Shown in pieces: positions 15,335-52,177 of a DNA stretch of 64,000 nt. The stretch lies in contig JAUZRK010000014.1 of NCBI GenBank assembly GCA_030950485.1, positions 2,431 through 66,430 of the forward strand, in the 5' to 3' direction. The notes under the pieces are model-generated. The model was not told the origin of the DNA, searched no databases, and saw nothing but the letters and a program-made list of their open reading frames with translations. Both the position numbers and the translations under genes were made by a program. The stretch's first letter is position 1. Every line of letters begins with the position of its first letter. Source of the stretch: Candidatus Dojkabacteria bacterium (GTDB lineage Bacteria; Patescibacteriota; Dojkabacteria; J137).

Positions 15335-16741
15335 CTATTGCTCCGCTGACTCGCTCCTTCTCTCTGAAGCTAAGACATAAGTTCTAAAAGTTGAGAGTTT
15401 ATATCCAAATTTGTCTACAAAATCATCAGCGACATCTTTTCCATCTTTATATGCTCTCTCCAGCAATCTATAAATTAAATAGCCAGACAATCCATACTCT
15501 GCATTAAGCTCATTTATGTAGTTCTTTAGCCCCTTCTCTTCATTAATCAAGTTCCAATCTGAAATATTAAAAGCTTTAAGCTCTGTTAGAATTGCTTGAT
15601 TAAGTTCTTCCCTAGCAATCTCATACGCTCTCCTTGAAGGAGCAAATTCACTGTCCGACTTTCTTTTTTCTCTATAGATCTTATGGGCAGTCTTCCATTT
15701 CGGTTTAGCTACATCTAATTCCTCAGTTGCAATATCCCAAGCTTCTCTAAAAGAAGTTTCTCCCGTACCAAATCTAGCATCAATTATTTCCCAATCTATA
15801 AGATTATAATCAAAGCCTCTTTCTAAATTTACAGCTGCTATAATTTCTCTCTGATATGAGCTATCAACTGGAATTATTTCCCGATTATTAGTAAACCATC
15901 TTATCAAAGAAGACGTCGTCATATTTAAGCTATCAAATTCGCTATTTAGTCTTTCAACAATAACTGCTCTAGTAACTCTAACTGTTTCGTCCGACCTTTC
16001 TTCGTAATAATATTTTTTTACTAATTCAATAAAGTGTAAATATTCCTCATTACTTAAAACTATTTGAGGATTACCATTCATATTTTTTTCTATTCTGGGA
16101 TTTACAATTTGCTTAGAAATTAGATTTCTAGAAACCCATACGCTTAAAGAATCACCATTAATACAATTTGACCCATCAGCTTTGCCGTATCTTCCATTTA
16201 ATGTAGCAGCAATTTGATTATATGTTAAAGTTTCTTCTTGATTATATAAAAGAATTATATTATCTATAATATCTCTATACTTTTCATTTCGCGGATTTAA
16301 AAAGGTAGTATAAACTACGTTTGAAAGGAGGATTTCAGTCTGTCGCTCTAAAGCTTTTTCTGTATCTGTTAGCTTTGATCGTAATTTAGGAATAAAGTTT
16401 TTTGTATTAGAAATGTCTTTAACTCTGGCTTTAATATATTCTTCACCTTCAAGATTAAATCCTTTTGAAAAAACTTTCTAGCTATGATAATTAGGTATAA
16501 AATCACTTACCGGTATTCCCAAATCAACTATTATTTCTGCAAGTGATTCATTTGTTAAGTAGTTTCCATCTTCATCTCTAGCATATAAAAATTCTTCCCA
16601 AGTAAATCTATTAGCTGGGCATACTAAGTTATATTCGTCTACTTCATCTACTACCCTACCTATTAGTTGAGATAAGTTATAGCCAGAGTTTTCAATTGTT
16701 GTTGGATCATCAGAATCGTTTACCATAAGGAATAATAACAC
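15335..16741 (-). pseudogene. Hypothetical gene (~469 codons) with an in-frame TAG at 16478-16480. ORFs 16478..16741 and 15335..16081 are one continuous frame.
   Basis: Own translation of 16082-16477 in the frame of both flanking ORFs shows no further stops (...NYHS*KVFSKGFNLEGEEYIKARV...EKNMNGNPQIV...). Confidence 0.45.
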
Positions 16742-16763: not shown

Positions 16764-17042
16764 CTATCTTATCAGATCAATCTCAAACGCTCCCATACCT
16801 CCAGTAAAATACCCTGCTGTTTTAAAATGCTTAACATATTTATGGTTCTTAAGAAGCTTCTCTACAATCGGTCTTACTACCCTACCCTTACCAGTAATAA
16901 CAAGAACTCTTTTATCATTCTTAAGATATGAGTCTTCAATAAATTCGAAAAGATATCTTTCAATATCGTACGGATCTAATTTTCCTAAAAGATGAAAATC
17001 AAACGTAGAATCAGCTTCAAAATTTTCTTCCCACGGGTACAT
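16764..17042 (-). CDS. Smr-domain protein
   Basis: LVITGKGRVVRPIVEKLLKNHKYVKHF matches the Smr signature (xITGKG...L...V...L). Confidence 0.5.
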   Translation of the reverse strand: MYPWEENFEADSTFDFHLLGKLDPYDIERYLFEFIEDSYLKNDKRVLVITGKGRVVRPIVEKLLKNHKYVKHFKTAGYFTGGMGAFEIDLIR

Positions 17043-17045
17043 AAG

Positions 17046-18548
17046 CTAAAAATTCAAATTACCAATTGGTGAACTAGTAGGCGGGTTAGCCTCTTGAATT
17101 GTTATACTTACGCTATTACTGAATTCAGAACACGCATTATCATTTATAGTACAAAGTGTAAAACTATAAGAACCCGGAGTTAGTGTCCAATAATAATTTC
17201 GAGAATCTTGAGTTAACATTACAGAATTTGCACTGTTAGCTGAATATTCTGGGCCATTTAAACCAAGTATTAAGTAATACCCCTTACTATTATCAAAACC
17301 TGTTATATCCCAGCTTAAGTTCGCTCCATTATCATCAGTAGATGCATATAGATTAAATACATCTTTTACAGTAATTACTTCAATTATTCTTGTAACTTTA
17401 AGCTCTTTAGTTGTTTCGTTATTATTTAATGGATTAATAGCCTTAATCTCTATTTCATTTAATCCCTCAGAAAGATCAATCTTATACGTAAACACTCCGT
17501 TTACAGAATCTATTTCTTCATCATTTATCGTTATAATTGCATCTTTTGAGCTCGTTCTACCTGTTATTTCAAGAGTGGGATCTTTAATTTCAAAATCGCT
17601 ATCCTTAGGAGAGGTAATAGTTAAATCTGGTGCTGTTAAGTCAAGATCTAGAGTTGAAGGAAAACCTCTCTTTGATATTGAATCAAGATCTTCGTCTTTA
17701 TCAATTCTAGATAATACTTCTGATCTAAAGCTATCACTGTCGCTTAAGTTTAATGATCTAACATCAATAAAGATTTCATCTAATAGTTTTTGTCTTTTAT
17801 ACCAGCTAGTTATTGATATTTCCTCTACAATTTTTCCCTCTGCAGAAGAGCAATTTAAGCTATCCCTATCAACTTGAGCTAGACTACCTGAAGGGATATC
17901 AATTGTTTCTTCATTACAACCAACTGCTTCAACATTATTTTCTTCTACACTTACAAAAGTCTCTCCACTAAACCTTTCATAAACATTAAAGATTGATTTA
18001 CCTGCAGTTATAGTAGAACTTGAAGCCTCAACATTAATTGTTGAAGACTGAATCCTGCTCCAAATACTACCAGAAAGTAATTCTATGTTTATATCGTTAT
18101 TAGTAAGACTTATAACAAGCTCAGTATTAGGATCAACACTTATAAATGAATTATCAGGAAGAAAAATGTAAGAAAAACTGTTTGTTGCATTTTTAATATA
18201 TGAAGGATTATCCAAGACTATCTCTCCTGCCTCCATTATTTCATAAACATCTTCTTCTGAAGATTTATAACTTATAGTACCCGAGCCTCTTACTAAAACA
18301 ATATCATTCAAACCTGTTTGTATTTGATTAGATTCACCTCCAAACTTTGTAAGAAGTGCTAAAACAAATGCAACTAAGACAATTATTCCAAATATAAATA
18401 TTTTTTTTCTATTATCTGATGCTTTATCTATATATTTATTTAGTTTTTCTCTAATAGTTTTTTTATCAGCTATTAGATTAGCTTCTTCAGAAATATCATT
18501 TGTAATTATTTCTTCATTTGCTGTTGATTTCATTTTTATTCTTTCCAT
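17046..18548 (-). CDS. Membrane-anchored protein with FecR-like beta-sandwich domain
   Basis: TM helix near residue 50, then the IVLVRGSGTISY...ELLSGSIWSRI pattern typical of FecR domains. Ser/Asp-rich linker. Confidence 0.45.
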   Translation of the reverse strand: MERIKMKSTANEEIITNDISEEANLIADKKTIREKLNKYIDKASDNRKKIFIFGIIVLVAFVLALLTKFGGESNQIQTGLNDIVLVRGSGTISYKSSEEDVYEIMEAGEIVLDNPSYIKNATNSFSYIFLPDNSFISVDPNTELVISLTNNDINIELLSGSIWSRIQSSTINVEASSSTITAGKSIFNVYERFSGETFVSVEENNVEAVGCNEETIDIPSGSLAQVDRDSLNCSSAEGKIVEEISITSWYKRQKLLDEIFIDVRSLNLSDSDSFRSEVLSRIDKDEDLDSISKRGFPSTLDLDLTAPDLTITSPKDSDFEIKDPTLEITGRTSSKDAIITINDEEIDSVNGVFTYKIDLSEGLNEIEIKAINPLNNNETTKELKVTRIIEVITVKDVFNLYASTDDNGANLSWDITGFDNSKGYYLILGLNGPEYSANSANSVMLTQDSRNYYWTLTPGSYSFTLCTINDNACSEFSNSVSITIQEANPPTSSPIGNLNF

Positions 18549-18581: not shown

Positions 18582-21500
18582 CTATCTGCTGATTTCATTA
18601 ATCATTACTTTAGCAGTCTTCCCAATACCAAATACATCTGGTGAATACATTAGATTTACTTTTGGAGGATTAACATTATATTCTCCACTAAAAGTAGCTC
18701 TTGTTAAATATTCATATTTATAAGCACCTTTTGGTAGATTGCTCATAAGTAACCCAACTCTATCTCCTAATAATCTCTCTCTAGTTATAAGATAACCTAA
18801 ATTAGTATAACTATTATTACTTATATCAGAATTTCTTGCAAAGTAGTTATAGTCATTATCAATTTTACTCTTTAAAGATTGATCTACTGTACCTAAATTA
18901 AAATTCACTAATTCATAACCAGCAGCTATTGGAGCCTCAACTAATACTTGTGAATAATCTCCCTCGGATATTATATATAAAGTATGCTTTATTATATCTC
19001 CTTCTTTAATATTTTCAATAACTCCATCTATTGATTCAATTTCTTCAAAGATAGTAAATCCATGAGAAACAGGTCTTATATCACTAAAATCAGGATAGGT
19101 ATTTAAGTTCAATCTGTAATATTGATTATGATTAGAAAAATTATATAGCGTTAACTCATTTAACTTATCTAAATTCCCAACTGTCAGGCTCTCCTCACTA
19201 CATTCAATACAAATATCCTTATTATTCAATAACGCACTAAATTTAATATCTCCGTCAATTATTTCATCTCTATCAATTCTATAGTTAGAAACAGTATTAA
19301 TAACTGATGCTACAGAGAATGTTGAGTAGTTATTGTTTTCATTATCTCTTAACCACATCATTCCCTTTTCAGTTAATGAATCGTAACCTCCATCTCTAAT
19401 TAAAGTTAGTAATACAGTTGCTGTAACATTCTCATTCGAGTCAGAATAATAGTAAGTACTAGAATCATTTGATTCCCAATAAATTAAGCCTGCACTTAAT
19501 GTTCCAGAATTAATTAAATCATTCATTAACTCGTCATATCTTGAAGAGTTTTTATCCAAAGACATAACTAGCCAAGCTTTAGCGCTATTATCATATACCT
19601 TATCGTAAATATTATTTATCAGTGATTCAGTAGATTTTGATTCATACAAACTAGTAACATATATTCCTAAAGCTCTAGATGTAAGCGTAGTAGAATTTTT
19701 GTCTGTCTTTAAGAGTATTTCTAATCTATCTACTCCTTTATTAACAACTGTACTACTAACGCTAATGCCATTTCCCTCAGCAATATATAAAGCGTAAAGT
19801 GCATACGCAGTATTTTCAATATTTGCTTGAGAATATTGCTTATTCCAGAAATCCCAGCCTCCAGATGAAAGTTGTAGATCATATAATTTACTAACCAAAG
19901 CACTAACTTCTTTATCATTCAAACCATCTAAATCATTTAGGTTTCTAAGTCCTAAATATGAAATCAATTTTGATGATGTTTGGTCAGTACAGTAGTAATT
20001 ATATTTAGTAATATATTCCTTCTCCTGACCAATATTTTTTGCAAGTGAAGGAGTAACCTCTAGATCTAAATTAGAATAAATAGCATCATCAGATACTTCT
20101 ATTATCTCAGTAGCGCTAAAATTAAGTTTTCCTGTGGTACTATTCGTCTCATAATGAGTAGCAAAATTTAAAGGTATTTCTTTTAGTACTGAGTCTAATT
20201 TTTCTTCCCCTTTATATAAGTTAAACTGAAATTTAACTAATGGATCTGTACTTGTAGCTTCTATAGCTACTTCATAAATTTCCCCTTTATTAGCAGCTAT
20301 TGTAATCGGCTCTGTTAATAAGACTTCTTCATTTCCAGATACATTTGAAATTATCTCAATTGAAGCATCAATATCTTTATCTGTATTATTCTGTAGTAAA
20401 GCACCAACGTTAAGCTTATCTCCATATGTCACAAATCTTGGTAGACTTGGAAATATTTGATAGTTAAGATTAGATATAATCTCTACTTTCTCTTGTCCAA
20501 AAAGATCTTCACCGCTACTAGCTTTTGCCACTATTACCCATGTTGTTAAATTGTCAGGTAATTCAAAATCTAAAGTTGCTTTACCATCTTTTCCAGTTTT
20601 AATTTCTGTCTGCCAGAAAGCCGTATCTTTAAATTCTTTTCTTGTGTCTAACTCATCAAATAAATTTGTAGATCCTCCTCCGCCTCCACCCTTGTCTCCC
20701 CATACAAGGTCTTCTCTAACTTTATCTATACTTAATGTTAGATTGTTACTTGAAGCAATATTGTACTCTCTTAATTTGTACATTACTTCTAATATGTTCT
20801 TATCTCCTATCAAAGCTAAATCGAATAAAGCTTTATCTACTACCGAAACAGTAACTCTTGAGTCAATATTTACTCCCTTTCTTGAAGTATTTATTTTCAG
20901 TTCGACCTTATCTCCCGGCTTATAACTTTTTTTATCTGAATTAATATCAACATCTAGCTTTTTATCTTCAAAGTCTACAACCAGTTCAGTAGTACCAATT
21001 CTAAAATCAGCTTTATTGCTAGCTGATGAGTTCTGTCCTTCAACAATTACACTAGTTAAGAAAATATTAGGAACATATTCTTCCTTAATCTCCTTATTTA
21101 TCTGATAACTAGGTGAATCTGATTTAACTACTTCATATTCTAGTATGTTATCCCAACTATAAATATTTAATAAATAAGCACTATTAAAGTTAGTACTAAT
21201 ATTTAGTTTTGCTATATCAGAAACACTATAAGCATTTTTATCTTTTTCAATATCAATTTCATGACTATCACCTAATTTATAACTATAGCTATAGTAATAA
21301 GGATCATATGCTCTAAATAAAGCTCTACTAACTTCAACTCCATTTCAAAAAACCTTTGCTACATATAAGCCTCCACTTGAAGGTATGAAATTTACAGAGG
21401 CCTTTCCATTTGAAGTCCGTAATCCTTCTTCGTATAAATATATATCATCAAAAATATATTCATAGTAAAGTCCTAAGCTGGAATCTTCTGTTCTTACCCA

Positions 21501-24500
21501 ATCTTCATTTCGCTTGTAGAACGCTACAGTAAAATTTGAGTCAACAGGATTAGAGTTAGTATCCAATGATACATAATCTATATTTAGCTCCTCTCCAACT
21601 GTATTAAAATAACTAGAGAATCTATAACCAAGTTGAATATCTGAATTTATTACTTTTATATCTTTCGAAGTAATAACTACTTCATTATTAATATCTATTA
21701 TTTCAGCATAAAATGTATTTAGCTGTAGGACATATTTAGGATCGATAGTTGAGTTAAATCTAATGATTGCCTCGCCATTCTCGTCAGTTCTTGCTTCTCC
21801 TTCAAGTACTATTTCACTTTCAAAATCAGATACATTTTCACAATATAAATAACAATACATATACATATCAGAAAGATCATCGGCCAGTTTATTGGTAAAA
21901 CTATAGTCGGAGTATTCTGGAATTGATGTAAAAGTGTCTCTTAATGTTATTTTCCAATTTACTTCTGCATTTGAAAGAGCCGCACCGCTAAAATATCTAC
22001 TATTTAATTTTATTTGAACTTCTTCACCAGTCTGAGCTATATCATTTGCTTCAAGCTCAACATAAAAATCTTTCTTCTTATAGTCTTCTACTAAAAATTG
22101 AGCGCTTGTATTGCTTGCGTCTGCTACATCAATAAAAAACTTAACTCCTTCCGAACCTTCTGGAATTACAAATGAACCATTAAATTCTCCGTTACCATTT
22201 AAATCATAATTTTTCTTAATACTGTCTAAATTTATACCATTAGCATAAATATTTAATTTTACTGAGTCGGAATTAAATTTAGGATAGCTAGTTGGAAAAC
22301 TAGAAATTGGATAACTAGTAGCACTTTCTCCATCATTAGGAACAACCATTCCTGTATCAGTCCATTCTCTAACGTAACCTTTAAAATTAACAGTGTCTCC
22401 AGGCTTATATAAAGTTCTATCAGTATAGACATACGCAATTATTGGATCTAGTGTTGCTCTACCTTTTGGATACCAGTATCCTCCCATTCCATTGCTCCAA
22501 TTTGAATCTAATATTCCAAACCTACCCTTATACTCAGCATAAATAATCAAATCTTGCTTAGAGTAATTATTTCCGTGATGTAGTCCTTTTGAAAGTAAGA
22601 CTCCGTCAGAACCAGTAGATCCTAAGAATGATCCATTACTTAAATATATCTTTGCCCCTGAGACAGGTTCACCGCTAACTGCATCTACAATCCAAGTTAG
22701 ATCAGATGTAGTTCCCTGATGTAGTGTTAATGCAAGAGATGAATAATTTATAATCTGTAAGTCTTGGTCATTTATTATCAACATATATACACCTTCGCCC
22801 TTTGTTTTATCAGTAATATCTACTTTATATTGGCTTGTTTCATTAAACTACTCTTTATACATTTCTGAATTATCAACGCTCCAAGAGCTAATCATTGAAC
22901 TACTAAAGTAGTTTGCTAGTTCAGCAGTGTTCATGTAATTACCGTTCTGAGAATAAATATACCCGCCGGATTTAAAAGTATTTGGGGATAGCTTATATAA
23001 TTTATAATTAAAGCTTGAATAATTTGTACTACTAAACCATACTTCCAATGGATTTGATGCGTTGTACATCGCTCTTTCACCTCCTACAATTTCAATACTT
23101 GGGTCGTAATCTTTTGTTTTATAAGAAAAAGATACTGGATATTTTAATCCTAAACCATCAGCAGAATTTCCATTTAAAACTTGAATATTATAGCTAGTCG
23201 AAGGTTCATTATAACCCTTTAATGATACATATCTATCGCCACTATACCAATATGATTCATCTCTAGTTAAAGTCTTACCATTTACTAAAATATTACCGAC
23301 AAGACTATCTACATTCATTTCAGTAGTAAAACTAATTGAGGGTTCACTATGATAAGCAAGTCCAGTTGAATCATTAATTGAAACGTTTATATCTGCTTCA
23401 GGATAATCAACAGTCGAAAAAACTACTCTTCTTTCTTCGCCTAGTGGAGAATTTGTTTCTAATGCTCTTAAATCTCCACTAAAAATAATTTGATAATTAG
23501 TTATTGGGTTTAAGTTAATACCTGGTTGAATGTATATATAATTAGAAGAGCCTTTAGTCTCCTGTGAAAGAATAATTTGAATATCGTATCCTTGATTATA
23601 TTCAGGCACTAATTTAATTTTATTAATATCAAGCTGAACAGCAACATTAAATTCTATAGAAATTCTTTCTGAAAGACCGTATCCTCCGCCTAATGAATTT
23701 TCTGATAAAAGAATAGGTTTCTCTCTTTCAATACTCCATTCGAAAGGTTCCTGCATCTTTAAACCGTCAGTTGATTCTATTAATTCATTATTAACATTTA
23801 CGGTATAAATATAACCTAGATCAAATCCATTTGATGGTCTAAATCTTAATGTTGTAGTTGAAAGCCATTCGTATTCACCTTCAACTTCAGGTGTGATTGT
23901 AACCGGAATCTCCTTTTCTTGTTGATCATCGACACTTGCTAGAGATGTCACAGGTTTGTTAAATGTAATAATAATATCCTGATTTTTTTCTTTTAGTATT
24001 TGAGGAGTATTAATTATTACCTCTGGATATGTAGTTGTCTCGAATTTGAATGATTGGATCTTATTTTTAATATCATTATTTTCTATAGTTACCTCAGATT
24101 CTGTTGCAAGTTTTAATGATTCATCAGGGATTAAAATTAGTTTATTTTCTTCCCACTTAGCTTCATAATCTATTTCAGGTGTTATCTCAATACTTTCCTA
24201 AAACTCATCTCTGATTTTTACAACACCATTAAGATTTATTTCAATTGATGAATCTATAGGTACTTCTGAAATATTTCTTCTAGGGGAAGATCCTGTTAGA
24301 TAGATAGTGTCCAATTTTTTCTCAAAACCAAAAGTATCTATATTTATTAGTGAGGTCAAAAAGAAAAACGAAAAGAATAGAATTGAAAAACCAACGATAG
24401 GTCGGCTTCTTTTATTATTAACTTTGTTTATAATTTTAGAATTCCTTATTCTCAAAGCTAGACTTGTAATTCTTGCTTTTGCGAATTTGATAATAGAAAT

Positions 24501-25025
24501 TAGAAAACGAATATGTGTAAGAGGATTAAGACTCTTCTTAAACTTTTTTTCTTTTAAGTTTTCAAACAAAGAAACTATTACTAATACTAAAATTACAGCA
24601 AGTATAGAAATAACTGCTACAAATGCAATAGATTGATCATAATTCTCAATTGCTAGCTGTGTTAGAAAAATAAGCAATATAATACTTGCAGAGTATGCTG
24701 GGTATTTAATAGTACTTTTAAGTAAATTCCTATAGATTATAAGAACGATAAATGTAAGGATTAAGAATAATACTATTTGAGTTAATAGCCTCTCATTATA
24801 AGTATTAAACGAAGTTTGATTAAACTGATCAAACATTCTGACGTAAACATAAACTGTAAAAAATACTCCTAAAAATTTCAGTATATTAAATTTATTAGAT
24901 TTGATTTTTTGATACGTTACTCTCGAAGAATTAACTAATTTATTTTTAATTAAGGTAAATGTAGTCTTAGATTTTTCAATGATTCTACTAACACTAAAAA
25001 ATTCTTTAAAATTGAAAGTCTTCAT
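18582..25025 (-). pseudogene. Giant alpha-2-macroglobulin-family protein (~2148 codons, N-terminal TM anchor) interrupted by three in-frame stops: TAG 24198-24200, TAG 22848-22850, TGA 21345-21347
   Basis: All four ORF pieces share one frame. Own translation across each junction and across the ORF-free stretch 20814-21344 shows no other stops. Signature TAFWQTEIKTGKDGKATLDFELPDNLTTWVIVAKA (A2M MG-domain motif). Thioester-like YNYYCTDQTSS (CxxQ retained). Gly6 hinge. Confidence 0.6.
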
Positions 25026-25098
25026 ACGAAAAAGTAACTTATATAAAACTGGGGCTTTATACCCGTATTATAGAGACAATTGTTCCATTAAAAAAGTG

Positions 25099-27121
25099 TC
25101 AATTTTTTAAAGGGTTATAGTCGAAAGTAATGTTCTGACAATCTGTAGTATCTTCAAATCCTTGATTAAAGCTATTGAAGTCTATATTACTGCTAGTATT
25201 AAACTTAACAATATCATCACTACAAATAGTAATTTTCAAAAGTTCTGAATAATTAAATTCATAATCATTCGCTGTGACTAAATTTATAGAGTAATTCCAA
25301 ATAGGTGCTGCTGCTACAGATCCGTATAGTCCATCCATTTCTCTTCCTAATGAATTTCCAACCCAAACTCCAACTATATATTCTGGGGTATATCCCATAG
25401 TAAGAGCATCTTTAAAATTTTGTGTAGTTCCAGTTTTAGCAGCACTGGGAAAGCTAGTTCTTAAAGAACTTAATGAACCAAATTGATCCCTTCTAGCGTC
25501 ATTATCTGAAAGTATATTTGTAATCATCTGAGTTATCGCTACTGTATTCTCTCCAAAAATTTTGCTACTATTTTTTTCTTGCTTATGCTCCCAAATTATA
25601 GTTCCACTACTGTCCTCTATCCTATCTATCATATAAGGTGTAGATAATTCCCCCTCATTTTGAAATAAACTGTACGCATAAGTAAGAGCAAATAAACTTA
25701 CTTCACACGCTCCAACAGTTGCAACTATTCCACACTCACTCGCACTATTTATGCTACCAAGCCCAACTTGTTTCATTAAATCTATAAAACTCTCAACCCC
25801 CAATCTCTCTGTCATTATCATAGCCGGGAGATTATATGAATTAGCTAATGATAATGTTATAGTCTGTAGCCCATGTTCTTTCAAATCTGCGTTATGGGGT
25901 GTAAAGTCCTCGCCTTTAACTTCAAAGATTCGTAATTTATCTAAAATTACTGATTGAGGTATGTATCCTTTATCAAATGCCAGCGCGTATAAAAACGGTT
26001 TTAATGTTGATGCAGGTTGAATTAGACCAAGAGAGTGATTGTATTCTCCATTATTTTCTTTGTCAAAAAAATCTACAGAGCCTATCATTGTAATAAGTGC
26101 TCCATTATTATCTGTAATAATAACTGCTGAGTTGTTAGCTCCTTTCTGTTCTAATTCTTTCATTTGATTATCAAGGAAAGTAAGTATTTCCGAATGTACA
26201 CTATAATCATAAGTAGTATAGACTTTTAGCTCAGTACTTAGATCAATTTCCAATTCTTTTCTAATTTCATTAACTTCATCATTTACCATCATTGAAAAAT
26301 GTGGGGCTTTTAGCAGATTAATATTTTCTTTTATAAAAAGTTCTTCCTCTATAGCCGACCTAAATTCTACTTCAGTAATATAATCATTTTTTAACATCCT
26401 TTCTAAAACTAAGTTCATTCTTTTAAGACCTAGCCCCCAAATCTGCATATGGATTAAAAACTGAGGGCTTATTTATCACGCCAATCAAATAACTACATTC
26501 AGTAAGACTTAAATTTGAAGTTGTTTTGCCAAAGTACGAGTTAGCTGCAGCTTCAATACCATAATTCAGATTTCCAAAGTTAACATTGTTAAAATACATT
26601 TCTAGAATTTCATCCTTAGAATATTCTGAATTTAATTTAACAGCATATATTGTCTCGTCTAGTTTTGATTTAAATGATCTATCAAAATAACTCCCTTCCG
26701 ATATTTTTACTAATTGCTGAGAAATCGTGCTTCCGCCTCTATCTTGGCCAAATACGCCATCTAACATAGCTCTTTAAACCCCCTTCGTACTTACGCCAAT
26801 ATTATTGTAAAAACTTTCATCTTCTGTCGATACTAAAGCGTTTATACAATTTTCAGGAATCTGATCGAATTCAATTGGAAAGTTTTTAATTGGTTCATCT
26901 TCAATTACTCTTAATGAAAGCTCGCCATTTCTATCGTAAATCGCAGTTGAATTATCGTAGTCAGTATTCAGTTCAAAGTCATAATTCATGTATCTGTAAA
27001 CAAAATATATAGATGGGAAAAGTATGAATATATCAAAGAATATAAATAGAATGACTAATAAATATTTCTTATTAATTTTACCTCTAGCTGAGTTGTATTT
27101 TTCTATCACTTTTCTTTTCAT
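25099..27121 (-). pseudogene. Class A penicillin-binding protein (GT51 glycosyltransferase + transpeptidase), disrupted by an in-frame TAA (26774-26776) and a +1 frameshift in a G5/C5 run (26434-26438)
   Basis: GT51 motifs EDESFYNNIGVS...GGSTISQQLVK...NPYADLG. If one G is removed, translation reads through as ...DLGLGLKRMNLVLERMLKNDYI (PBP linker). Transpeptidase SxxK / SxN-like motifs downstream. Confidence 0.65.
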
Positions 27122-27284
27122 TGATACATTATAGTTTACATTATAGATGACGTAGATGGGGGGAGAAAAAGGACAGGGTTTTAATAAGAGAATTATTTAT
27201 ACAGCTCTGATTTAAATAAAAACCTCGCTGGAATATTTCTAACCTGGGTATAACTCTCCTCCAACCCTTAGCTTTGCGTTAATG

Positions 27285-32728: not shown

Positions 32729-33625
32729 TTGCCACGTCTTATTATCTATCCAGTTATAAAACATTATATGAGTACTGTAAAAAAAGTAATTCTAAATTCA
32801 GGTATAGAAGTTTACCTCAGAGGTGAGATAAACAATCCAGGAAAAATAAAAATATTTGTTCACGGATTTGGTTCAAACGAGACAGGAGGATCGCTTGTTT
32901 CTAAAATGTATCCTGGTGGATTTTCTCCAGAGCTTGCTAATCAAGATGAGGCAAATTTAGTAGTAAGCTTTAATGCTTGTAACGTAACTCATGAACTAAC
33001 AGCTTTTGGAGATAGAGAAGTTCAGAGATTCCCATCGCTTAGTGAGTATGCTGAAATGTTAAATTCAGTAATTAGCGAAGTATCTCAAAGTTATTCTGAT
33101 TTAGATATACATTTAATTGGACATAGTTTAGGAACATTAGCAATTTTAAAACTAATGTCAGAACTAGAATCTGATATTCCAGCTATAAGTAGAATAAGTC
33201 TACTTGCTCTACCTGTTGATGCCTCTCCTGAAAGAATGAGAAGGACATATGAAAGCGGGGGGAGAATGATAAAAGTAGGAGATGAATACCATATCTTAAG
33301 AACAGATGGCTCTGTCACAATCGTAACTGAAGATTTTTGGAAGGATCAAGAGAAAATAAATGTACTAGACTCTGCTGAGATTTTAACTAAGAGGTTTGCT
33401 GAAAATCTTGAAGTAATAGTTGCAAGTAAAGATACGGTTCTTTTCCCAGAGCAAGGTTTCGTAGAAGAGAGATATAGCGAATTATATTCTCCTTTATTAG
33501 ATGTGCTCGATTATAATGGAGCTCACTTTGGAGTGATTAATATGAATCCTGAAACAGAGAATGGTCACGACTTTATAGATGAAGTTGATTCAGTTGCTGT
33601 TCTAAGTCATTTATCTAATAAATAA
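32729..33625 (+). CDS. Alpha/beta-fold hydrolase
   Basis: Nucleophile elbow IGHSLGT. Overall alpha/beta hydrolase pattern. Confidence 0.5.
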   Translation: MPRLIIYPVIKHYMSTVKKVILNSGIEVYLRGEINNPGKIKIFVHGFGSNETGGSLVSKMYPGGFSPELANQDEANLVVSFNACNVTHELTAFGDREVQRFPSLSEYAEMLNSVISEVSQSYSDLDIHLIGHSLGTLAILKLMSELESDIPAISRISLLALPVDASPERMRRTYESGGRMIKVGDEYHILRTDGSVTIVTEDFWKDQEKINVLDSAEILTKRFAENLEVIVASKDTVLFPEQGFVEERYSELYSPLLDVLDYNGAHFGVINMNPETENGHDFIDEVDSVAVLSHLSNK

Positions 33626-33642
33626 TATTACTTCCTTAAAAT

Positions 33643-34372
33643 ATGAAAAATAAAACAATATTACTTTGTGGTGGAAATGGTGAGTTAGCTAGAACTTATT
33701 ATAAAACCCAATCCAGATAATCATTTTATTCTAGTTGATATAGATAAAGAACCGCATTCAGATAGTAAATACTTGAGTAACTTTAGTTTTATCCAAGCAG
33801 ATATTACTAACGGTGAGGAGTTAGAAAAGAGAATCAAAGGTAATATTTCTAACTTAAAAATTGATAGTATTTTACTAACTCCAGCCTATAACTCTCATCG
33901 ATTACTCAAAGATACTGCATATGACGAAATCAAGACAGCAATTGACCGTAAAGCTATAGGATTCATTAACTTAGTAAAATCGGTTCTAAACCATTTGAAT
34001 TCAGGTGCATCAGTAGTATTTATAGGATCAGTCCATAGCCTAAGCACAAAGGATAATTCGTGTGTATCATACTCAGCTGCGAATGGTGCAGTAATTTCCT
34101 CAGTAATTAACTTAGCTATTGAATTTAAACATTTGTATAGATTCAATGTAATTTCACCAGGAGGGTTCGTAACTGAAAACTATAAAAATACATACTTAGA
34201 TTGGAAAGATAAACTAAGAAAAAAGACTGCATTTCCGATTGATAGTATAATAAATACAATTGAATTTTTATTTAGTGATATGAGCTATGGTATTTCTGCT
34301 CAAAATATAATAGTAGATGGAGGGCGATCAGTTATGAGATGTAGCGCTGCAGATTGGGAGCTTAAAGTATAA
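33643..34372 (+). pseudogene. Short-chain dehydrogenase/reductase (SDR) with a frameshift near 33700-33715
   Basis: ATG 33643 frame encodes MKNKTILLCGGNGELARTYYKTQSR*. The +1 frame continues NPDNHFILVDIDKEP...(ORF 33773..34372) with the catalytic region. Removing one base in the aaaaccc run restores ...YYKTNPDNHFILVDID. Confidence 0.5.
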
Positions 34373-35580: not shown

Positions 35581-36570
35581 ATGAATGATGATTTAGGTTT
35601 TCAGCTCTTACTTTACATTAAGGATAATGGAGCACATACAGCTACAGAACTATCAGAGGTTTTTAATATAAAGAGGACTACTCTTCTCTATCAGCTTAAT
35701 TTTCTAATTGAAAAAAAACTAGTCGATAAAGAAAAAAAAGGAAGAGAAGTATATTTTAAAATTAATTCATTAAGCTCAATAGAGAGTTACTTTAGAGACA
35801 AAATTGATATTCTAAACAGTCAGTTAGATAAACTTGTACTAGATACTACTAAACTAAATCGAAAGCTTGTAGTTATTGCTGATGATTTTGGACTTACAAA
35901 ATCCATTAGTGATGGATGCCTTGTTGCTTATAACTCAGGTATTATAAGTGAATTAGCTCTTATTCTAAACTCTAATGGAACAAAATATGCTTTGGATAAA
36001 ATTATAGAAGCAAATATTAGAAACGTTGGACTAAATTTTGAGTATGAGTTTGCAAATAATGAACATATATCGCAAACCGAAGCTATTAATTCTATAAAAT
36101 CAGGTATCTTTAATTTTCAAAAAGATGTTGGTTTTAAGCCATCAAGTATTTATCTAGCCAAAGAGCTCTATTTAAGGTTAGAGATATTGGAGGAAATTGC
36201 TAATTATTGTAAAGAAAACTCAATTTCTTTACGTTTACCAAAAATTATCAATCAAAATAAAAGTGAAAATTACGCCGCAGAGGTAATGATGAACCGAGTC
36301 GGCGTTAAAACTACAGACTTTAATACAACATTCGAAAAGACATTCTCTATTTATAAACTTAAAAATAATATTCTTAACATTCTAAACAATATTGAAGAAA
36401 ATAAGAGTCTAGAAATAAATCTATCTCCAGGCTTTATCGACAGAGAAACCGTGGAATTAGTAGATCAGATTATAGATAGAGGAAAACATTTAGTAATATC
36501 TATTGATAATGAATTAGAAGAAGAGATTAAGAAATTAAATTACCAGATTGTATCATTTAACCAGCTATGA
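35581..36570 (+). CDS. wHTH regulator domain fused to YdjC/ChbG-like carbohydrate deacetylase domain
   Basis: N-terminal HTH (TELSEVFNIKRTTLLYQLNFL) and YdjC-type motif VVIADDFGLTKSISDG. Confidence 0.5.
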   Translation: MNDDLGFQLLLYIKDNGAHTATELSEVFNIKRTTLLYQLNFLIEKKLVDKEKKGREVYFKINSLSSIESYFRDKIDILNSQLDKLVLDTTKLNRKLVVIADDFGLTKSISDGCLVAYNSGIISELALILNSNGTKYALDKIIEANIRNVGLNFEYEFANNEHISQTEAINSIKSGIFNFQKDVGFKPSSIYLAKELYLRLEILEEIANYCKENSISLRLPKIINQNKSENYAAEVMMNRVGVKTTDFNTTFEKTFSIYKLKNNILNILNNIEENKSLEINLSPGFIDRETVELVDQIIDRGKHLVISIDNELEEEIKKLNYQIVSFNQL

Positions 36571-37379
36571 AGAAGAAAGTTATAGTAACAGCCTCCGATT
36601 TTGGGCTTACTAAGCCTGTTAATGAAGGAATTAAATGGATAATACACAATCCCAATAATATCCTTACTGAACTTTCTCTAGTAGTTAACGCTCCTGGAAG
36701 TGAACACGCAGCTGAAATGGCAAAAACTTTGAACGTAAATGTCGGAACCTGTTTTAACTTAACTAGATTTAAGCCAATTAGCGATCAAGTTGCTACTCTT
36801 ACAAAGGAGAATGGAGAATTTTACAAACCTGATTTAGGTAAGTGGGATTTTAGTTTTATAGAAAAATTTAAAGAAGAAGAAATTAAAAGAGAATTAGAAG
36901 CGCAGTATAAATGGTTCTTAGAAAAAGTTAATAAAAAGCCAACGTCTATAAGATTTAGGAAAAATGAAAATGGAGATCCTAAAATCTTAAAACCTGTTGC
37001 CGAGATCGCTAAACGAGAAGATATAGCAATGGCAACTCCAGTTTGGATATGGCGGGAGAACTTCTCTGCACATAACTTTGCTAAAGAAAAAGGGGTTAAA
37101 CTTACTGATCATGTAATTATTACCTCACCCGGATGGGCGCATGAAAATCATTCAATAGCGGTCGATATTACAAAGACTGATAAGCTTGTAGAAACTATAA
37201 ATCAAAATAATGGTATTAGCGAGGTAGTTATTATTGCTGGCTTTTTAGATAAAGAGCTATTAGAAATTACAAAGACACTAAATTGGCAGAGATTGATTCC
37301 AATTGAAGTAATAAAAAACGGCGAGCTTAGTAGCAGACTCAAAGATGAGTTTGAACTGATAAGTTTTAGTGATTTATGA
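36567..37379 (+). CDS. YdjC/ChbG-like carbohydrate deacetylase
   Basis: VIVTASDFGLTKPVNEGI motif. 4-nt ATGA overlap with the upstream paralogue. Confidence 0.5.
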   Translation: MKKKVIVTASDFGLTKPVNEGIKWIIHNPNNILTELSLVVNAPGSEHAAEMAKTLNVNVGTCFNLTRFKPISDQVATLTKENGEFYKPDLGKWDFSFIEKFKEEEIKRELEAQYKWFLEKVNKKPTSIRFRKNENGDPKILKPVAEIAKREDIAMATPVWIWRENFSAHNFAKEKGVKLTDHVIITSPGWAHENHSIAVDITKTDKLVETINQNNGISEVVIIAGFLDKELLEITKTLNWQRLIPIEVIKNGELSSRLKDEFELISFSDL

Positions 37380-40900: not shown

Positions 40901-42423
40901 ATGAGTATAGTAGAATTGGAACCAGATGCTGTAGAAATGATACAAGCAGAAAACATGAAGAGATATGAGCAACTTAGGAATGTTCCTGGTAGCGCAGACG
41001 GTGAAGGACCACCTGTAATTGATATATTAGGAGAGTCTTCTGAAGCAGAAGAAGATAGGAAGAATGTATTTAAAGCAGTTAAACATAATCTAGGTAAAGT
41101 AGGTGAAGATTTCTCTAATAGTCCAGATTATGATCCAGAATCAATTACTAATCAAGAATTAGTAGCTAGAAGATTCTTTAATCTACGTCAAAAATTTGGA
41201 AATGACTATATTAGTGAAATTGTTTTGGAAGATATAAATTCACCTAAGTACTGCGTCGTTAATCAAAGAGCAAATTTAATGCAATATCCAATTGCAATTG
41301 ACGACTATGGCGATTATCCATATCAATTTGATTTCAGAGAAGGATTAGAACCAAATGATTGGATACTGGGTATTTTTGACGGAGTTAATGCAAACGAGGC
41401 TGGTCTTATTGTAGCTAAAGCAGAAGTTGGAAAGGGAGATATTAAAGAAAAGTGGGCGTATATCAGAACTCATAATAAAGAAGGTTGGATTAGAGAGGAT
41501 GACTTGGCGATGAAAGAAAAAGATGAAATAGATTTTGATCCGCTAAGACCTGCTAAGAATCAAGAAAGATTAGGCGAAAATTTTGGGGTTGTAGTAGAGA
41601 TAGGGCTTAAATATGATCCTATCCAAAAACGATTAGTATCAGTAGATCCATTTAAAACTAATGATAAATTAAAAAACGATCAAATAGATAAAATTGTAGC
41701 TGGTGGAATGCTTGAAGATATTGGAGACGGAATAGCAGAAAAGGGTGAAAGATCATTATTATCTTTAGGTGATCCTATTAAAATTATTTCTGAAGTTGAA
41801 GAAGATTTTTTAGTTGAACTAGCTAACGGTAAACAATATCTATTAGATAAGAATTATCTAAATAGAGGCTACTTGGAGAAAACTCCAGAAAATTTTAGAA
41901 TGATGCTAGAAAAAGCAATTGGAAATCCATATTCGTGGGGAGATGGAGATGGAATAAATTTTGATTGTTCCGGACTTACAGAAAGAGTTCAAAAAGCTTT
42001 TGGTATTGCAAGTGGAGCTGGAAGTGACGCTCAGACATTGGAAACGATTTAGGATTAGTGTATAGAGGAATGGATGTAGATTTTCTTCCTGCAGATGTTA
42101 ATGAACTTATTAACCTAGGAGTTGATATTGACAAGTTAAAAGGTAAATTCTTTTTAGTAGGAATTGAAGGAGCTCATGGTATGTTTGGAGAAATAAATGA
42201 TGATGGAAAAATTCTCTATTATCATTCTATTGGCTATACTACGGATATGAGTAAGCTGCGAAAGTTAAATAATGCTGAAACAGAGGCTGATCATCAAATT
42301 AATCCTACGACTAAGTTCTTTAGAGTAAATAAAGAAATACTTGTTCCCCTAAATAGTCAGGAAGAAGGTTTTAATATAGCTATCAAAGCTAGAAACAGAA
42401 GAATGGCAATTTTAGTAGTGTAA
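40901..42423 (+). pseudogene. NlpC/P60-family cell-wall hydrolase with SH3-like N-terminal region, split by a frameshift near 42040-42057
   Basis: ORF1 ends NPYSWGDGDGINFDCSGLTERVQKAFGIASGAGSDAQTLETI* (Cys motif). ORF2 in the next frame continues GLVYRGMD...GKFFLVGIEGAHGMFGEINDDGKILYYHS (His motif region). Inserting one T in the attt run joins them. Confidence 0.5.
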
Positions 42424-51469: not shown

Positions 51470-52177
51470 CTATCTTAATGCTTGAATACCTAAGTTAGGA
51501 TCATTAATGATTACATAATCTATTCCTATAGAAGCTAGTTCTTGCAGCCTCTCTAAGCTAGTCTCTCCGGCAGTCCTTGGCTCTCTAGTACCAGTAGTAA
51601 CAATTACTTTACCGTTTAACTGATGAATTCCTTCAACTCTACTTTTGGTGACATGTTTATCCCATAGTCTATAGAAGCTGCCCCTATATTTTAAAAAATC
51701 TATATAACCATCTGGATCTTGATCTAAACCTACTATTTCTACTTTTGAATGATTCTTAATAAGATGATTTATTAATTTTTCTTCTCTTGCTCCGACCAAA
51801 ACTCTCGAATTATCAATTTATTTTAATTTAACAATTTCAAGCGCTTTATCTACTAGACCAAGGCTATCTTGCTTTAAATCAAACATAAGTTTACCTTTAA
51901 ATGTATTTATTTTTTCTATTATATCTTCAAACCTAGAAATCAAAATATCTCCATTCTCATCTATTAGGTCCTTAAATGATTCATAATTTAAATTTTCAAC
52001 ATCTACTCCATATTTTTCCCTAGCAGTTTTAGAATGAGTACATAGAACGATCCCGTCACTACTTAAGCAAAGGTCTATTTCTAAAACATCCGGTAATAAT
52101 TTTATTGCTTCAAGATATGATCTTAAAGTATTCTCCTTATATTTTGCTGAATAACCTCCATGAGCTATTATTTTCAT
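51470..52177 (-). pseudogene. Glycerophosphodiester phosphodiesterase (GDPD) with one in-frame TAA (51818-51820)
   Basis: N-terminal piece IIAHGGYSAKYKENTL...EIDLCLSSDGIVLCTHS and C-terminal piece ...IGIDYVIINDP are in the same frame, separated by 6 codons and one TAA. Confidence 0.55.

What the first reader, a model, noticed from the sequence alone, without database searches (positions are those of the whole stretch)
18582..27121. Giant membrane-anchored alpha-2-macroglobulin-like gene next to a class A PBP, mirroring the yfhM-pbpC linkage, with both genes disrupted
The ~2148-codon ORF has the bacterial A2M MG-domain signature (TAFWQTEIKTGKDGKATLDFELPDNLTTWV) and a CxxQ thioester-like site (YNYYCTDQ instead of CxEQ). 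It sits directly downstream of a GT51/transpeptidase PBP. Bacterial A2M genes are classically linked to pbpC as a periplasmic defence and repair pair. Here the A2M-like gene has three in-frame stops and the PBP has a TAA plus a G5 frameshift. The cluster continues with a FecR-domain protein, an Smr protein and a hypothetical gene carrying an in-frame TAG, all on the same strand.
Basis: partly seen in the sequence, partly recalled or inferred. Interest (0 to 1): 0.6.

Follow-up and report, generated by a model that had tools for sequence, protein, structure and literature searches.

The report
Broken protease-trap and wall-synthase gene pair
This is a known bacterial envelope-defence gene pair, a giant alpha-2-macroglobulin protease trap next to a cell-wall synthase, found in an uncultured Dojkabacteria genome where both genes carry a few premature stops; it is a correct but ordinary find, and the breaks still need read-level confirmation.

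Summary
Window 18582-25025(-) is one 2147-codon bacterial alpha-2-macroglobulin (A2M) gene cut by TAG, TAG and TGA. Window 25099-27121(-) is one class A PBP cut by a TAA and a +1 frameshift. Domain hits, alignments and a structure model place the A2M with the thioester-type YfhM/ECAM and Salmonella A2M. CTDQ sits exactly at the CxEQ thioester site. The organism is a Candidatus Dojkabacteria (CPR) MAG.

The PBP-A2M linkage is conserved. The two closest homologues (P0050, P0051) have intact PBP→A2M operons with the same unusual multi-helix N-terminal anchor. At least 33 of 80 more distant loci also carry an adjacent PBP. A2M homologues in CPR bacteria are already published.

The breaks are not special to this pair: recQ and probably 3-4 other genes in the window are also broken. 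All five lesions recur in a second, near-identical MAG. The genetic code is standard. Neither gene has evolved faster than its relatives, and the catalytic motifs are intact.

Best reading: very recent pseudogenes (about 0.6). Main rival: shared consensus errors (about 0.3).

Novelty: new member of a known kind; low to moderate interest.

The parts
25099..27121 (-). Class A penicillin-binding protein, about 673 codons when repaired. It has an N-terminal TM helix, a GT51 transglycosylase domain and a transpeptidase domain. It lacks the PBP1c C-terminal domain. It is interrupted twice.
   Evidence: Pfam Transgly E=1.1e-50 and Transpeptidase E=7e-21 on the merged protein. It is 36% identical (E=2e-124) over 607 aligned columns to the intact PBP of L002, and 45.8% identical to the intact PBP of L168. 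NCBIfam PBP_1c scores 357.9 bits against a cut-off of 494.2 and covers profile positions 8-561 of 728.
26774..26776 (-). In-frame TAA inside the GT51 domain (…STKGV*RAMLDG…).
   Evidence: It aligns to A, I or G in intact PBPs. It is also present in the sister MAG.
26423..26448 (-). Zone of the +1 frameshift between the GT51 and linker parts of the PBP. It contains a G5 run at 26434-26438.
   Evidence: The ORFs 26423-26767 and 25099-26448 overlap here. Sequence. The repaired reading ADLGAGLKRMNLVLE matches L168 FDLEAGIERKNLVLE.
18582..25025 (-). Alpha-2-macroglobulin family gene, 2147 codons plus the terminal TAG, interrupted by three in-frame stops.
   Evidence: There are 3 stops in frame against 215 and 354 in the other two frames.
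24321..25025 (-). N-terminal polytopic membrane anchor (codons 1-235, 4-5 hydrophobic helices, K/R-rich loops).
   Evidence: Hydropathy scans. The same architecture is present in P0050 and P0051. Of 146 full-length homologues, 118 have only one N-terminal helix.
24198..24200 (-). In-frame TAG number 1 (codon 276), inside the first Ig-like (Big_5/Big_10) domain.
   Evidence: Alignment columns.
22848..22850 (-). In-frame TAG number 2 (codon 726).
21345..21347 (-). In-frame TGA (codon 1227), just upstream of the bait-region domain. It aligns to Ile in P0050 and P0051.
22926..24278 (-). N-terminal Ig-like region (three Big_5 stretches plus Big_10), typical of the Chloroflexota/Patescibacteria clade of A2Ms.
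   Evidence: Pfam Big_5 E=1.3e-16 (3 stretches) and Big_10 E=6.5e-9.
22131..22436 (-). MG2 macroglobulin domain.
   Evidence: Pfam MG2 E=1.2e-9, residues 864-965.
20817..21257 (-). Bait-region domain (A2M_BRD).
   Evidence: Pfam PF07703 E=9.5e-19, residues 1257-1403, profile 1-140 of 140.
20355..20624 (-). A2M domain (PF00207), holding the signature FKDTAFWQ…LPDNLTTW.
   Evidence: Pfam E=5.1e-16. These were the conserved patterns picked.
19269..20030 (-). Thioester-domain (TED) region, all-helical in the model.
   Evidence: AlphaFold model with mean pLDDT 79.5; helices at residues 262-515 of the 743-aa fragment. The best Foldseek matches are 4u48, 5a42 and 4ziu. The Pfam TED model itself is not matched.
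19980..19991 (-). CTDQ, at the position of the CxEQ thioester motif.
   Evidence: Cys and Gln are invariant in alignments A1 and A2. Among 84 homologous loci, 74 have CxEQ, 1 has CxDQ and 9 lack the Cys. P0050 has CTEQ and P0051 has CSEQ.
18636..19016 (-). C-terminal bMG10 domain.
   Evidence: Pfam PF17973 E=1.7e-16.

Best explanation
The locus is a two-gene envelope-defence module of a Candidatus Dojkabacteria (CPR/Patescibacteria) bacterium. A class A PBP of about 673 aa is followed, 73 nt downstream on the same strand, by a 2147-aa thioester-type alpha-2-macroglobulin.

Inferred ancestral mechanism, by homology to E. coli YfhM/ECAM and Salmonella A2M:
- The A2M is held on the outer face of the cytoplasmic membrane, here by an unusual N-terminal domain of about five helices.
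- It exposes a bait region. When an attacking protease cleaves the bait, the protein changes shape and the Cys-Gln thioester in the TED domain links covalently to the protease.
- The neighbouring PBP repairs peptidoglycan.

In this genome both genes are interrupted: A2M by TAG, TAG and TGA, and the PBP by a TAA and a +1 frameshift. I read these as real and very recent inactivating mutations. The module is a young pseudogene pair in a genome that also carries other broken accessory genes.

Shown:
- gene identity, domain order and conserved synteny;
- the stops are present in two assemblies;
- the genetic code is standard;
- there is no long-term rate acceleration.

Inferred: the trapping and repair mechanism, the topology, and that the lesions exist in the cells rather than only in the consensus. 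The confidence of 0.6 refers to the pseudogene reading. Identity as a PBP-A2M module is about 0.95.
For: Identity:
- Pfam domains on the merged proteins.
- The clade profile hits YfhM 5a42 at E=6e-78 and Salmonella A2M 4u48 at E=2e-75.
- The model of the C-terminal 743 aa has Salmonella A2M (E=2.6e-36) and ECAM as its best fold matches.

Synteny:
- Intact PBP (662 aa) then A2M (2132 aa), overlapping by 23 nt, in L168.
- Intact PBP (661 aa) then A2M (2090 aa) in L169.
- An intact PBP that passes the PBP_1c cut-off sits upstream of P0001.
- A PBP is adjacent in at least 33 of 80 GTDB loci.

Real lesions rather than random error:
- All five lesions are identical in a second Dojkabacteria MAG, GCA_030949735.1. 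That MAG differs from the window by only 6 substitutions plus about 20 indels over 41.6 kb.
- About 5.4% of random substitutions make a stop. Seven nonsense codons from random consensus error would therefore need roughly 130 substitution errors in the window, far above the 0.014% substitution difference between the two assemblies.
- At every coding site where the two assemblies differ by an indel, the window keeps the frame.
- dnaE, mutS and the amino-acid-tRNA ligase are intact, while accessory genes are broken.
- 5 of about 10 lesions fall in 15% of the coding sequence (binomial 0.009, a post-hoc test).
- 4 of the 6 inter-MAG SNPs fall in the A2M gene (binomial 0.007).
- The seven nonsense sites share no sequence motif.
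- TAA, TAG and TGA all terminate confident genes (18, 10 and 8 genes), so the code is standard.

Recency:
- Tajima relative-rate counts show fewer unique changes in the window's A2M than in P0050 (190 versus 280), and fewer in its PBP than in the L168 PBP (49 versus 79).
- The GT51 Glu motifs, the SxxK, SxN and KTG motifs, and the thioester Cys and Gln are all intact.
Against: - No reads are available.
They may share sequencing technology or even reads, so systematic consensus errors could be shared.
- The sister assembly is demonstrably error-prone, with frameshifts in dnaE, mutS and grpE.
- Several stops sit at T/A homopolymer boundaries (TTT|TAG, TTTTT|TGA, GTT|TAA|A), and the PBP frameshift sits beside a G5 run.
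- recQ is also broken, which is unexpected for a healthy genome and fits a noisy consensus equally well.
- The absence of rate acceleration and the intact catalytic motifs are just what functional genes would show.
Confidence: 0.6

Rival explanations
1. Both genes are intact and functional in the cells. The four stops and the frameshift are residual consensus errors of an error-prone (probably long-read) metagenome assembly, and they recur in the sister MAG because the errors are systematic or the data are shared.
For: - The sister MAG differs from the window almost only by single-base indels, and these break dnaE, mutS and grpE. This shows that the project's assemblies contain consensus errors.
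- G-run length differs between the two assemblies at 27158, and the PBP frameshift is next to a G5 run.
- Three or four of the stops lie at T/A run boundaries.
- Other genes, including recQ, are broken too.
- The sequences show no relaxed-selection signature, and the catalytic motifs are intact.
Against: - The errors seen between the assemblies are indels, not substitutions: 6 substitutions in 41.6 kb, at least 4 of them synonymous and so looking like real SNPs.
- Seven substitution-type stops would imply roughly 130 substitution errors.
- The stop sites share no motif, as a methylation-linked miscall would require.
- The inferred changes are mostly transversions.
- The long essential genes are untouched.
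- The lesions cluster in this locus.
Confidence: 0.3
2. The stops are decoded or bypassed by stop-codon reassignment, a suppressor tRNA or programmed readthrough or frameshifting, so full-length proteins are still made.
For: Some CPR relatives (Gracilibacteria, Absconditabacteria) reassign TGA; this is established knowledge. The frames stay open and conserved on both sides of each stop.
Against: - All three stop codons occur in frame, and all three also end confident genes (TAA 18, TAG 10, TGA 8).
- Only two ordinary tRNAs lie in the window, and there is no recoding RNA.
- The closest homologues have sense codons at these positions.
- Only a few genes are affected.
Confidence: 0.04
3. The pieces are separate, independently functional smaller genes, or unrelated genes that only look like one A2M.
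For: NCBI's annotation calls the pieces as separate proteins, for example a 479-aa hypothetical protein and a 449-aa transpeptidase-domain protein.
Against: - Single homologues of 2037-2132 aa align across every junction.
- The first stop splits one Ig-like domain, and the PBP's TAA splits the GT51 domain, which scores as one contiguous hit when merged.
- The downstream pieces have no start codon near the stop and no signal or anchor for export.
Confidence: 0.02

Closest known systems
Type I bacterial alpha-2-macroglobulin with PBP1c: E. coli YfhM (ECAM)-PbpC and Salmonella Sa-A2M (PDB 5a42, 4ziq, 4rtd, 4u48). The operon and the defence-and-repair hypothesis are described in PMC5764988.
   Same: - MG domains, bait-region domain, A2M domain, helical TED with the Cys and Gln of the thioester, and a C-terminal MG10 domain.
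- These are the best sequence and fold matches in the PDB.
- The gene is adjacent to a bifunctional class A PBP on the same strand.
   Different: - About 500 residues longer, with extra N-terminal Big_5 Ig-like domains.
- Anchored by a polytopic N-terminal membrane domain instead of a lipoprotein signal.
- The motif is CTDQ, not CxEQ.
- The PBP lacks the PBP1c C-terminal domain and scores below the PBP_1c cut-off.
- Gene order is PBP→A2M.
- The host is a CPR bacterium, assumed to have no outer membrane, so the protein would face the outside rather than a periplasm.
- Both genes are interrupted.
Intact homologues P0050 (L168, Logan SRR33375180) and P0051 (L169/L170, SRR24874942/3).
   Same: - Same operon: a PBP of 661-662 aa followed directly by an A2M of 2090-2132 aa.
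- Same polytopic N-terminal anchor of about 5 helices.
- Same short PBP C-terminal tail with two conserved Cys residues.
- 34.5% and 31.7% identity over the full length.
   Different: Both genes are intact in these relatives. Their thioester motifs are canonical (CTEQ, CSEQ). They have sense codons where the window has stops.
A2M-domain giant membrane proteins of CPR bacteria: Vampirococcus lugosii Vamp_6_203 and Vamp_19_245 (PMC8080830), and homologues in Gracilibacteria, Paceibacteria and WWE3 MAGs (PMC9793634).
   Same: Very large, membrane-localised A2M-domain proteins in Patescibacteria. They are proposed to protect the epibiont or parasite against host proteases.
   Different: Those reports do not describe the PBP linkage, Dojkabacteria members, the polytopic anchor or disrupted copies. 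No direct sequence comparison with them was made here.
Type II bacterial A2M: P. aeruginosa MagD and E. coli YfaS, in the six-gene mag operon (PMC5764988, PMC3735191).
   Same: Same superfamily and the same overall MG-domain architecture with a bait region.
   Different: Type II proteins lack the thioester Cys-Gln and sit in a magABCDEF operon. Here the Cys and Gln are kept and the neighbour is a PBP, so this is not type II.

Membership tests
Type I (thioester) bacterial alpha-2-macroglobulin, YfhM/ECAM-like | Macroglobulin (MG) domains plus a bait-region domain | tested here: met
   Pfam MG2 E=1.2e-9 and A2M_BRD E=9.5e-19 (full profile 1-140). bMG3 and bMG5 are weak.
Type I (thioester) bacterial alpha-2-macroglobulin, YfhM/ECAM-like | A2M domain (PF00207) and C-terminal MG10 domain | tested here: met
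   PF00207 E=5.1e-16 and bMG10 E=1.7e-16.
Type I (thioester) bacterial alpha-2-macroglobulin, YfhM/ECAM-like | Helical thioester domain (TED) fold | tested here: met
   The AlphaFold model (pLDDT 79.5) is all-helical over residues 262-515 of the C-terminal fragment. The top Foldseek hits are 4u48, 4u4j, 5a42 and 4ziu, with E=1e-33 to 1e-36. phmmer aligns this region to the Sa-A2M TED. The Pfam TED_complement model itself gives no hit.
Type I (thioester) bacterial alpha-2-macroglobulin, YfhM/ECAM-like | CxEQ thioester motif | tested here: not met
   The motif is CTDQ at 19980-19991. The bond-forming Cys and Gln are kept, but Glu is replaced by Asp. Of 84 homologous loci, 74 have CxEQ and only one other has CxDQ. 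The closest relatives have CTEQ and CSEQ. Whether CxDQ still forms a thioester is unknown.
Type I (thioester) bacterial alpha-2-macroglobulin, YfhM/ECAM-like | Lipoprotein signal peptide (inner-membrane lipid anchor) | tested here: not met
   The N-terminus has 4-5 hydrophobic helices over about 235 residues and no signal-peptide or lipobox arrangement. Most clade members have a single N-terminal helix.
Type I (thioester) bacterial alpha-2-macroglobulin, YfhM/ECAM-like | Genomic linkage to a class A PBP (pbpC) | tested here: met
   The PBP ends 73 nt upstream of the A2M start on the same strand. The linkage is conserved in L168, L169, L002 and L005, and in at least 33 of 80 GTDB loci.
Type I (thioester) bacterial alpha-2-macroglobulin, YfhM/ECAM-like | Uninterrupted reading frame | tested here: not met
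   There are three in-frame stops, and they are also present in the sister MAG.
Type I (thioester) bacterial alpha-2-macroglobulin, YfhM/ECAM-like | Bait-cleavage-triggered covalent trapping of proteases | not testable with these tools
   This needs biochemistry on a repaired, expressed protein.
Penicillin-binding protein 1C (PbpC; NCBIfam TIGR02073) | GT51 transglycosylase domain with catalytic Glu motifs | tested here: met
   Transgly covers 12-177 of 178, E=1.1e-50. The EDxxF motif (STEDESF) and the second Glu (DEILEMY) can be read directly in the sequence.
Penicillin-binding protein 1C (PbpC; NCBIfam TIGR02073) | Transpeptidase domain with SxxK, SxN and KTG motifs | tested here: met
   Transpeptidase E=7e-21. 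STLK, SYN and KTG can be read in fragment 25099-26448.
Penicillin-binding protein 1C (PbpC; NCBIfam TIGR02073) | PBP1c-specific C-terminal domain (BiPBP_C) | tested here: not met
   The PBP_1c profile is matched only over positions 8-561 of 728. There is no BiPBP_C hit, and only about 64 residues follow the transpeptidase domain. The L168 PBP has the same short tail, and the L169 PBP is the same length (661 aa) with no BiPBP_C hit on record. The PBP of L002 does have the domain.
Penicillin-binding protein 1C (PbpC; NCBIfam TIGR02073) | Score at or above the curated equivalog cut-off | tested here: not met
   357.9 bits against a cut-off of 494.2. PBP1A family scores 395.7 against 508.75. The protein is best called a class A PBP that is PBP1c-like.
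Type II bacterial A2M (MagD/YfaS) | No thioester Cys-Gln, and location in a six-gene mag operon | tested here: not met
   Cys and Gln are present. The neighbours are a PBP, a FecR-domain protein and an Smr protein, not mag genes.

The most novel reading that the evidence does not exclude
The lesions are real, and a natural Dojkabacteria population has just lost both partners of the PBP-A2M module together. That would be natural-history evidence that the two genes are functionally coupled: once one is lost, the other becomes dispensable. It would occur in a CPR sub-clade whose A2M has a distinctive polytopic membrane anchor, and here a CxDQ variant of the thioester site. It would also be part of a wider wave of accessory-gene decay (recQ, NlpC/P60, SDR, GDPD), which is unusual for an already streamlined CPR genome.
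Probability: 0.45. Interest if true: 0.35.

Novelty: new member of a known kind. Interest (0 to 1): 0.25.

Why it matters
The finding extends the A2M-PBP defence-and-repair pairing, first described in Gram-negative bacteria, to Dojkabacteria, and shows it is widespread in Patescibacteria and Chloroflexota. The pairing therefore also occurs outside typical Gram-negative lineages. It also documents a sub-clade with a multi-helix membrane anchor.

If the stops are real, the joint decay of both genes is modest supporting evidence for their functional coupling, and it flags ongoing gene loss in a CPR lineage. If they are errors, the case is a caution that this MAG and its sister GCA_030949735.1 contain consensus errors that fragment gene calls. 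Neither outcome changes current understanding of the family.

Tried and rejected
- **Alternative genetic code.** Rejected. TAA, TAG and TGA all end confident genes, and all three occur among the in-frame stops. No unusual tRNA or recoding RNA is in the window.
- **Old pseudogene under long relaxed selection.** Rejected. Relative-rate counts show the window's A2M and PBP have fewer lineage-specific changes than their intact relatives. A leave-one-out count at otherwise invariant columns (12 of 58) was only marginally above other long branches and was not decisive.
- **Independent validation from other assemblies.**
  - An exact 34-mer scan of JGI metagenomes found nothing.
  - A protein-seeded metagenome scan found only relatives of 29% identity or less.
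  - The exact-protein look-up found only the sister MAG.
  - A look-up meant to compare the recQ/GDPD region in the sister MAG failed.
- **Species-representative genome scan.** The second worked but did not return the window's own genome.
- **Paper search for the assembly accession.** No result.
- **Literature on a Glu→Asp change in CxEQ.** Nothing useful was found.
- **Promoter and terminator scan.** Fewer promoter-like sites than in shuffled sequence, and nothing informative.
- **Merging the GDPD and NlpC/P60 pieces.** This did not lengthen their Pfam matches, so those two lesions remain only probable.
- **Downstream genes as module members.** The FecR-domain, Smr and hypothetical genes are not conserved next to the A2M in L168, L169, L002 or L005, so I do not count them as part of the module.

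Full report
**What is in the sequence**

The window has about 30% G+C, and the finding lies on the minus strand. From ATG 25025 to the terminal TAG at 18582-18584 there is one frame of 2147 sense positions. It is broken by only three stops: TAG 24198-24200, TAG 22848-22850 and TGA 21345-21347. The other two frames of the same stretch hold 215 and 354 stops, so the long frame is certainly a gene.

Seventy-three bases upstream lies a second gene, 25099-27121. It falls into three pieces, separated by a TAA at 26774-26776 and a +1 frameshift in the overlap 26423-26448, which contains a G5 run at 26434-26438. The frameshift can be explained by one extra G in that run or by an extra A in GCT-A-GGT. 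The repaired reading ADLGAGLKRMNLVLE matches FDLEAGIERKNLVLE of the closest intact homologue.

**Identity of the two genes**

For the A2M, with stops written as X, Pfam finds:
- A2M_BRD, the bait-region domain, over the full profile (E=9.5e-19);
- three Big_5 Ig-like stretches, Big_10 and MG2;
- the A2M domain and bMG10.

Full-length homologues of 2037-2132 aa align across all three stops. The first TAG lies inside the first Ig-like domain, so the membrane-spanning N-terminal piece and the rest are one gene. A profile of the clade hits E. coli YfhM/ECAM (5a42, E=6e-78) and Salmonella A2M (4u48, E=2e-75) ahead of eukaryotic TEP, A2M, CD109 and complement proteins. The window's last 743 residues alone hit the same entries at E=7e-8 to 1e-6.

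An AlphaFold model of those 743 residues (pLDDT 79.5, pTM 0.66) shows beta-sandwich domains flanking a thirteen-helix domain. Its best fold matches are Salmonella A2M and ECAM at E=1e-33 to 1e-36. The Pfam TED model itself was not matched, so the fold result is the evidence for a thioester domain.

Cys and Gln are invariant, while Glu is Asp only here. In 84 homologous loci, 74 have CxEQ, one other has CxDQ and nine have lost the Cys.

The merged PBP gives a contiguous Transgly hit (12-177 of 178, E=1.1e-50) and a Transpeptidase hit (E=7e-21). Its EDxxF, SxxK, SxN and KTG motifs are readable. It reaches 357.9 bits on NCBIfam PBP_1c against a cut-off of 494.2. It matches only profile positions 8-561 of 728, which means it lacks the PBP1c C-terminal domain.

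**Organism and relatives**

Exact-sequence look-ups name the source as a Candidatus Dojkabacteria bacterium MAG, with locus tags Q9M76_ and a 66,650-bp contig. They also reveal a sister MAG, GCA_030949735.1, with locus tags Q9M91_.

An exhaustive HMMER search found two much closer homologues than the word-indexed search had: P0050 (2132 aa) and P0051 (2090 aa), at 34.5% and 31.7% identity over the full length. In both, an intact class A PBP of 661-662 aa sits immediately upstream on the same strand. It overlaps the A2M start by 23 nt in L168 and lies 23 nt away in L169. The L168 PBP has the same short C-terminal tail as the window's PBP.

Both A2Ms also share the window's unusual N-terminal domain of about five hydrophobic helices, whereas 118 of 146 full-length homologues have a single N-terminal helix.

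Further out:
- P0001 has an intact upstream PBP that passes the PBP_1c cut-off.
- P0005 has a convergent PBP.
- Among 80 species-representative loci, at least 33 have a class A PBP beside the A2M. These loci are mostly Chloroflexota, Peribacteria/Peregrinibacteria, Gracilibacteria and Paceibacteria. The count is a lower bound because of short contigs and flanks.

The yfhM-pbpC style linkage is therefore real and conserved in this clade.

**Are the disruptions real?**

Five lines of evidence were examined.

1. *They are not unique to the pair.*
   - recQ has an in-frame TAA at 51027-51029, and merging the pieces restores a contiguous DEAD domain (1-165 of 167).
   - The open frame 15335-16741 has a TAG followed by 132 stop-free and start-free codons.
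   - An SDR gene and an NlpC/P60 gene look frameshifted, and a GDPD gene may carry a TAA.
   - Long housekeeping genes (dnaE, mutS, an amino-acid-tRNA ligase, ABC transporters, ychF) are intact.
2. *The code is standard.* TAA, TAG and TGA end 18, 10 and 8 confident genes.
3. *The sister MAG shares the lesions.*
   - It is 99.9% identical over 41.6 kb and carries every lesion in the compared range: the five in the pair, the TAG in the hypothetical gene, and the SDR and NlpC/P60 shifts.
   - It differs from the window by only 6 substitutions and about 20 single-base indels. Those indels break dnaE, mutS, grpE and others.
   - The window is the in-frame version at every coding difference.
   - Only about 5.4% of random substitutions create a stop. 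Seven nonsense codons from random consensus error would need about 130 substitution errors, which is incompatible with a 0.014% substitution difference between the assemblies unless the errors are systematic and shared.
   - The stop contexts share no motif.
4. *The lesions and SNPs cluster.* Five of about ten lesions fall in 15% of the coding sequence (binomial 0.009, a post-hoc test). Four of the six SNPs between the MAGs lie in the A2M gene, two of them non-synonymous (binomial 0.007).
5. *Some evidence points the other way.*
   - Relative-rate counts show no acceleration in the window's A2M (190 unique changes against 280 in P0050) or in its PBP (49 against 79).
   - All catalytic motifs survive.
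   - Some stops sit at T/A run boundaries, and the frameshift sits beside a G5 run.

Taking these together, I put about 0.6 on recent genuine inactivation and about 0.3 on shared consensus error. Recoding and the separate-genes reading each get a few percent.

**How it most likely works, or worked**

The mechanism is inferred by homology with ECAM and Sa-A2M, as described in PMC5764988:
- The A2M is tethered to the cytoplasmic membrane and displays a bait region.
- Cleavage of the bait by an incoming protease triggers a conformational change and covalent capture through the Cys-Gln thioester.
- The neighbouring PBP rebuilds damaged peptidoglycan.

In CPR bacteria the same role has been proposed as protection against host proteases (PMC8080830, PMC9793634). 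The topology (N-terminus inside, five helices, ectodomain outside) is inferred from K/R-rich loops. Whether CTDQ can still form a thioester is unknown.

With the stops in place, only a 275-residue membrane fragment could be exported. The downstream pieces lack both a start codon near the stop and an anchor, so the gene as written is non-functional.

**Comparison and novelty**

This is a type-I-like bacterial A2M with its PBP partner. It departs from the textbook pair in several ways:
- extra Big_5 domains;
- a polytopic anchor instead of a lipobox;
- CTDQ instead of CxEQ;
- a PBP without the PBP1c C-terminal domain;
- a CPR host.

A2M-domain giant proteins in Patescibacteria are already published. 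The PBP linkage in this clade and the polytopic-anchor sub-clade are small additions. It is a new member of a known kind, correctly read by the first-stage reader, with an unresolved question of assembly quality.

Noticed in passing
window 49146-51293 (-): recQ is cut by an in-frame TAA at 51027-51029. It aligns to Leu in the conserved LNS motif, probably TTA→TAA. Merging the two pieces restores a contiguous DEAD domain (1-165 of 167) plus the Helicase_C, RQC, HRDC and HTH_40 domains.
   Followed up: yes
window 40901-42423 (+): An NlpC/P60 cell-wall hydrolase gene appears frameshifted near 42037-42040. The domain starts in one frame (YSWGDGDGINFDCSGL…) and an NlpC/P60-like continuation (…FFLVGIEGAHGMFGEINDDGKILYYHS) lies in another frame. 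Pfam did not extend its match when the pieces were merged. This would be a third envelope gene broken in the window. The shift is shared with the sister MAG.
   Followed up: partly
window 33620-34372 (+): A short-chain dehydrogenase gene seems frameshifted near 33690. The Rossmann N-terminus (MKNKTILLCGGNGELA…) is in a different frame from the body, which matches adh_short_C2 positions 47-234 of 236.
   Followed up: partly
window 51470-52177 (-): A GDPD-family gene may carry an in-frame TAA at 51818-51820. Only profile positions 1-101 of 244 are matched, even after merging the pieces.
   Followed up: partly
window 15335-16741 (-): A hypothetical gene has an in-frame TAG at 16478-16480, followed by 132 codons with no stop and no ATG, GTG or TTG. 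It has no Pfam match. With the FecR/Glucodextran_B gene (17046-18548) and the Smr gene (16764-17042), it continues the same-strand cluster. None of these neighbours is conserved next to the A2M in relatives.
   Followed up: partly
L001 and L087 (GCA_030949735.1 JAUZSD010000009.1), equal to window 7049-48646: The sister Dojkabacteria MAG is 99.9% identical but carries about 20 extra single-base indels, often an added C or G. These fragment dnaE, mutS, grpE, DUF1697 and others. Its gene calls are therefore unreliable, and it shows that this project's assemblies contain consensus indel errors.
   Followed up: yes
window 21697, 22221, 23532, 23813, compared with L001: Four of the only six substitutions between the two MAGs lie inside the A2M gene: I1110T, S935S, Y498Y and Y405N. 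The second 21-kb segment has none.
   Followed up: yes
window 24321-25025 (-); P0050, P0051, P0059: A polytopic N-terminal membrane domain (about 5 helices, 8 in P0059) replaces the usual single signal-anchor in a small sub-clade of giant A2Ms. Its function is unknown.
   Followed up: partly
L027, L044, L047, L052, L067, L068, L070, L084 (Chloroflexota loci): Nine of 84 homologous A2M loci have lost the thioester Cys, for example PYESTDE and PYFSSEA. This suggests repeated loss of the thioester within this clade. L022 (Anaerolineales) has CTDQ, like the window.
   Followed up: no
L004 10001-16085 (ENA ERZ25070530, contig at 2.15x coverage): Another homologue (P0004) is called as two adjacent genes of 1547 and 478 aa, split between the A2M domain and the TED/MG10 part. 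This is probably a frameshift or stop in a low-coverage contig.
   Followed up: no
window 35581-37379 (+): There are two adjacent YdjC-like genes. The first is fused to an N-terminal winged-helix (MarR/TrmB-like) domain and matches only the first 46 positions of the YdjC profile.
   Followed up: no
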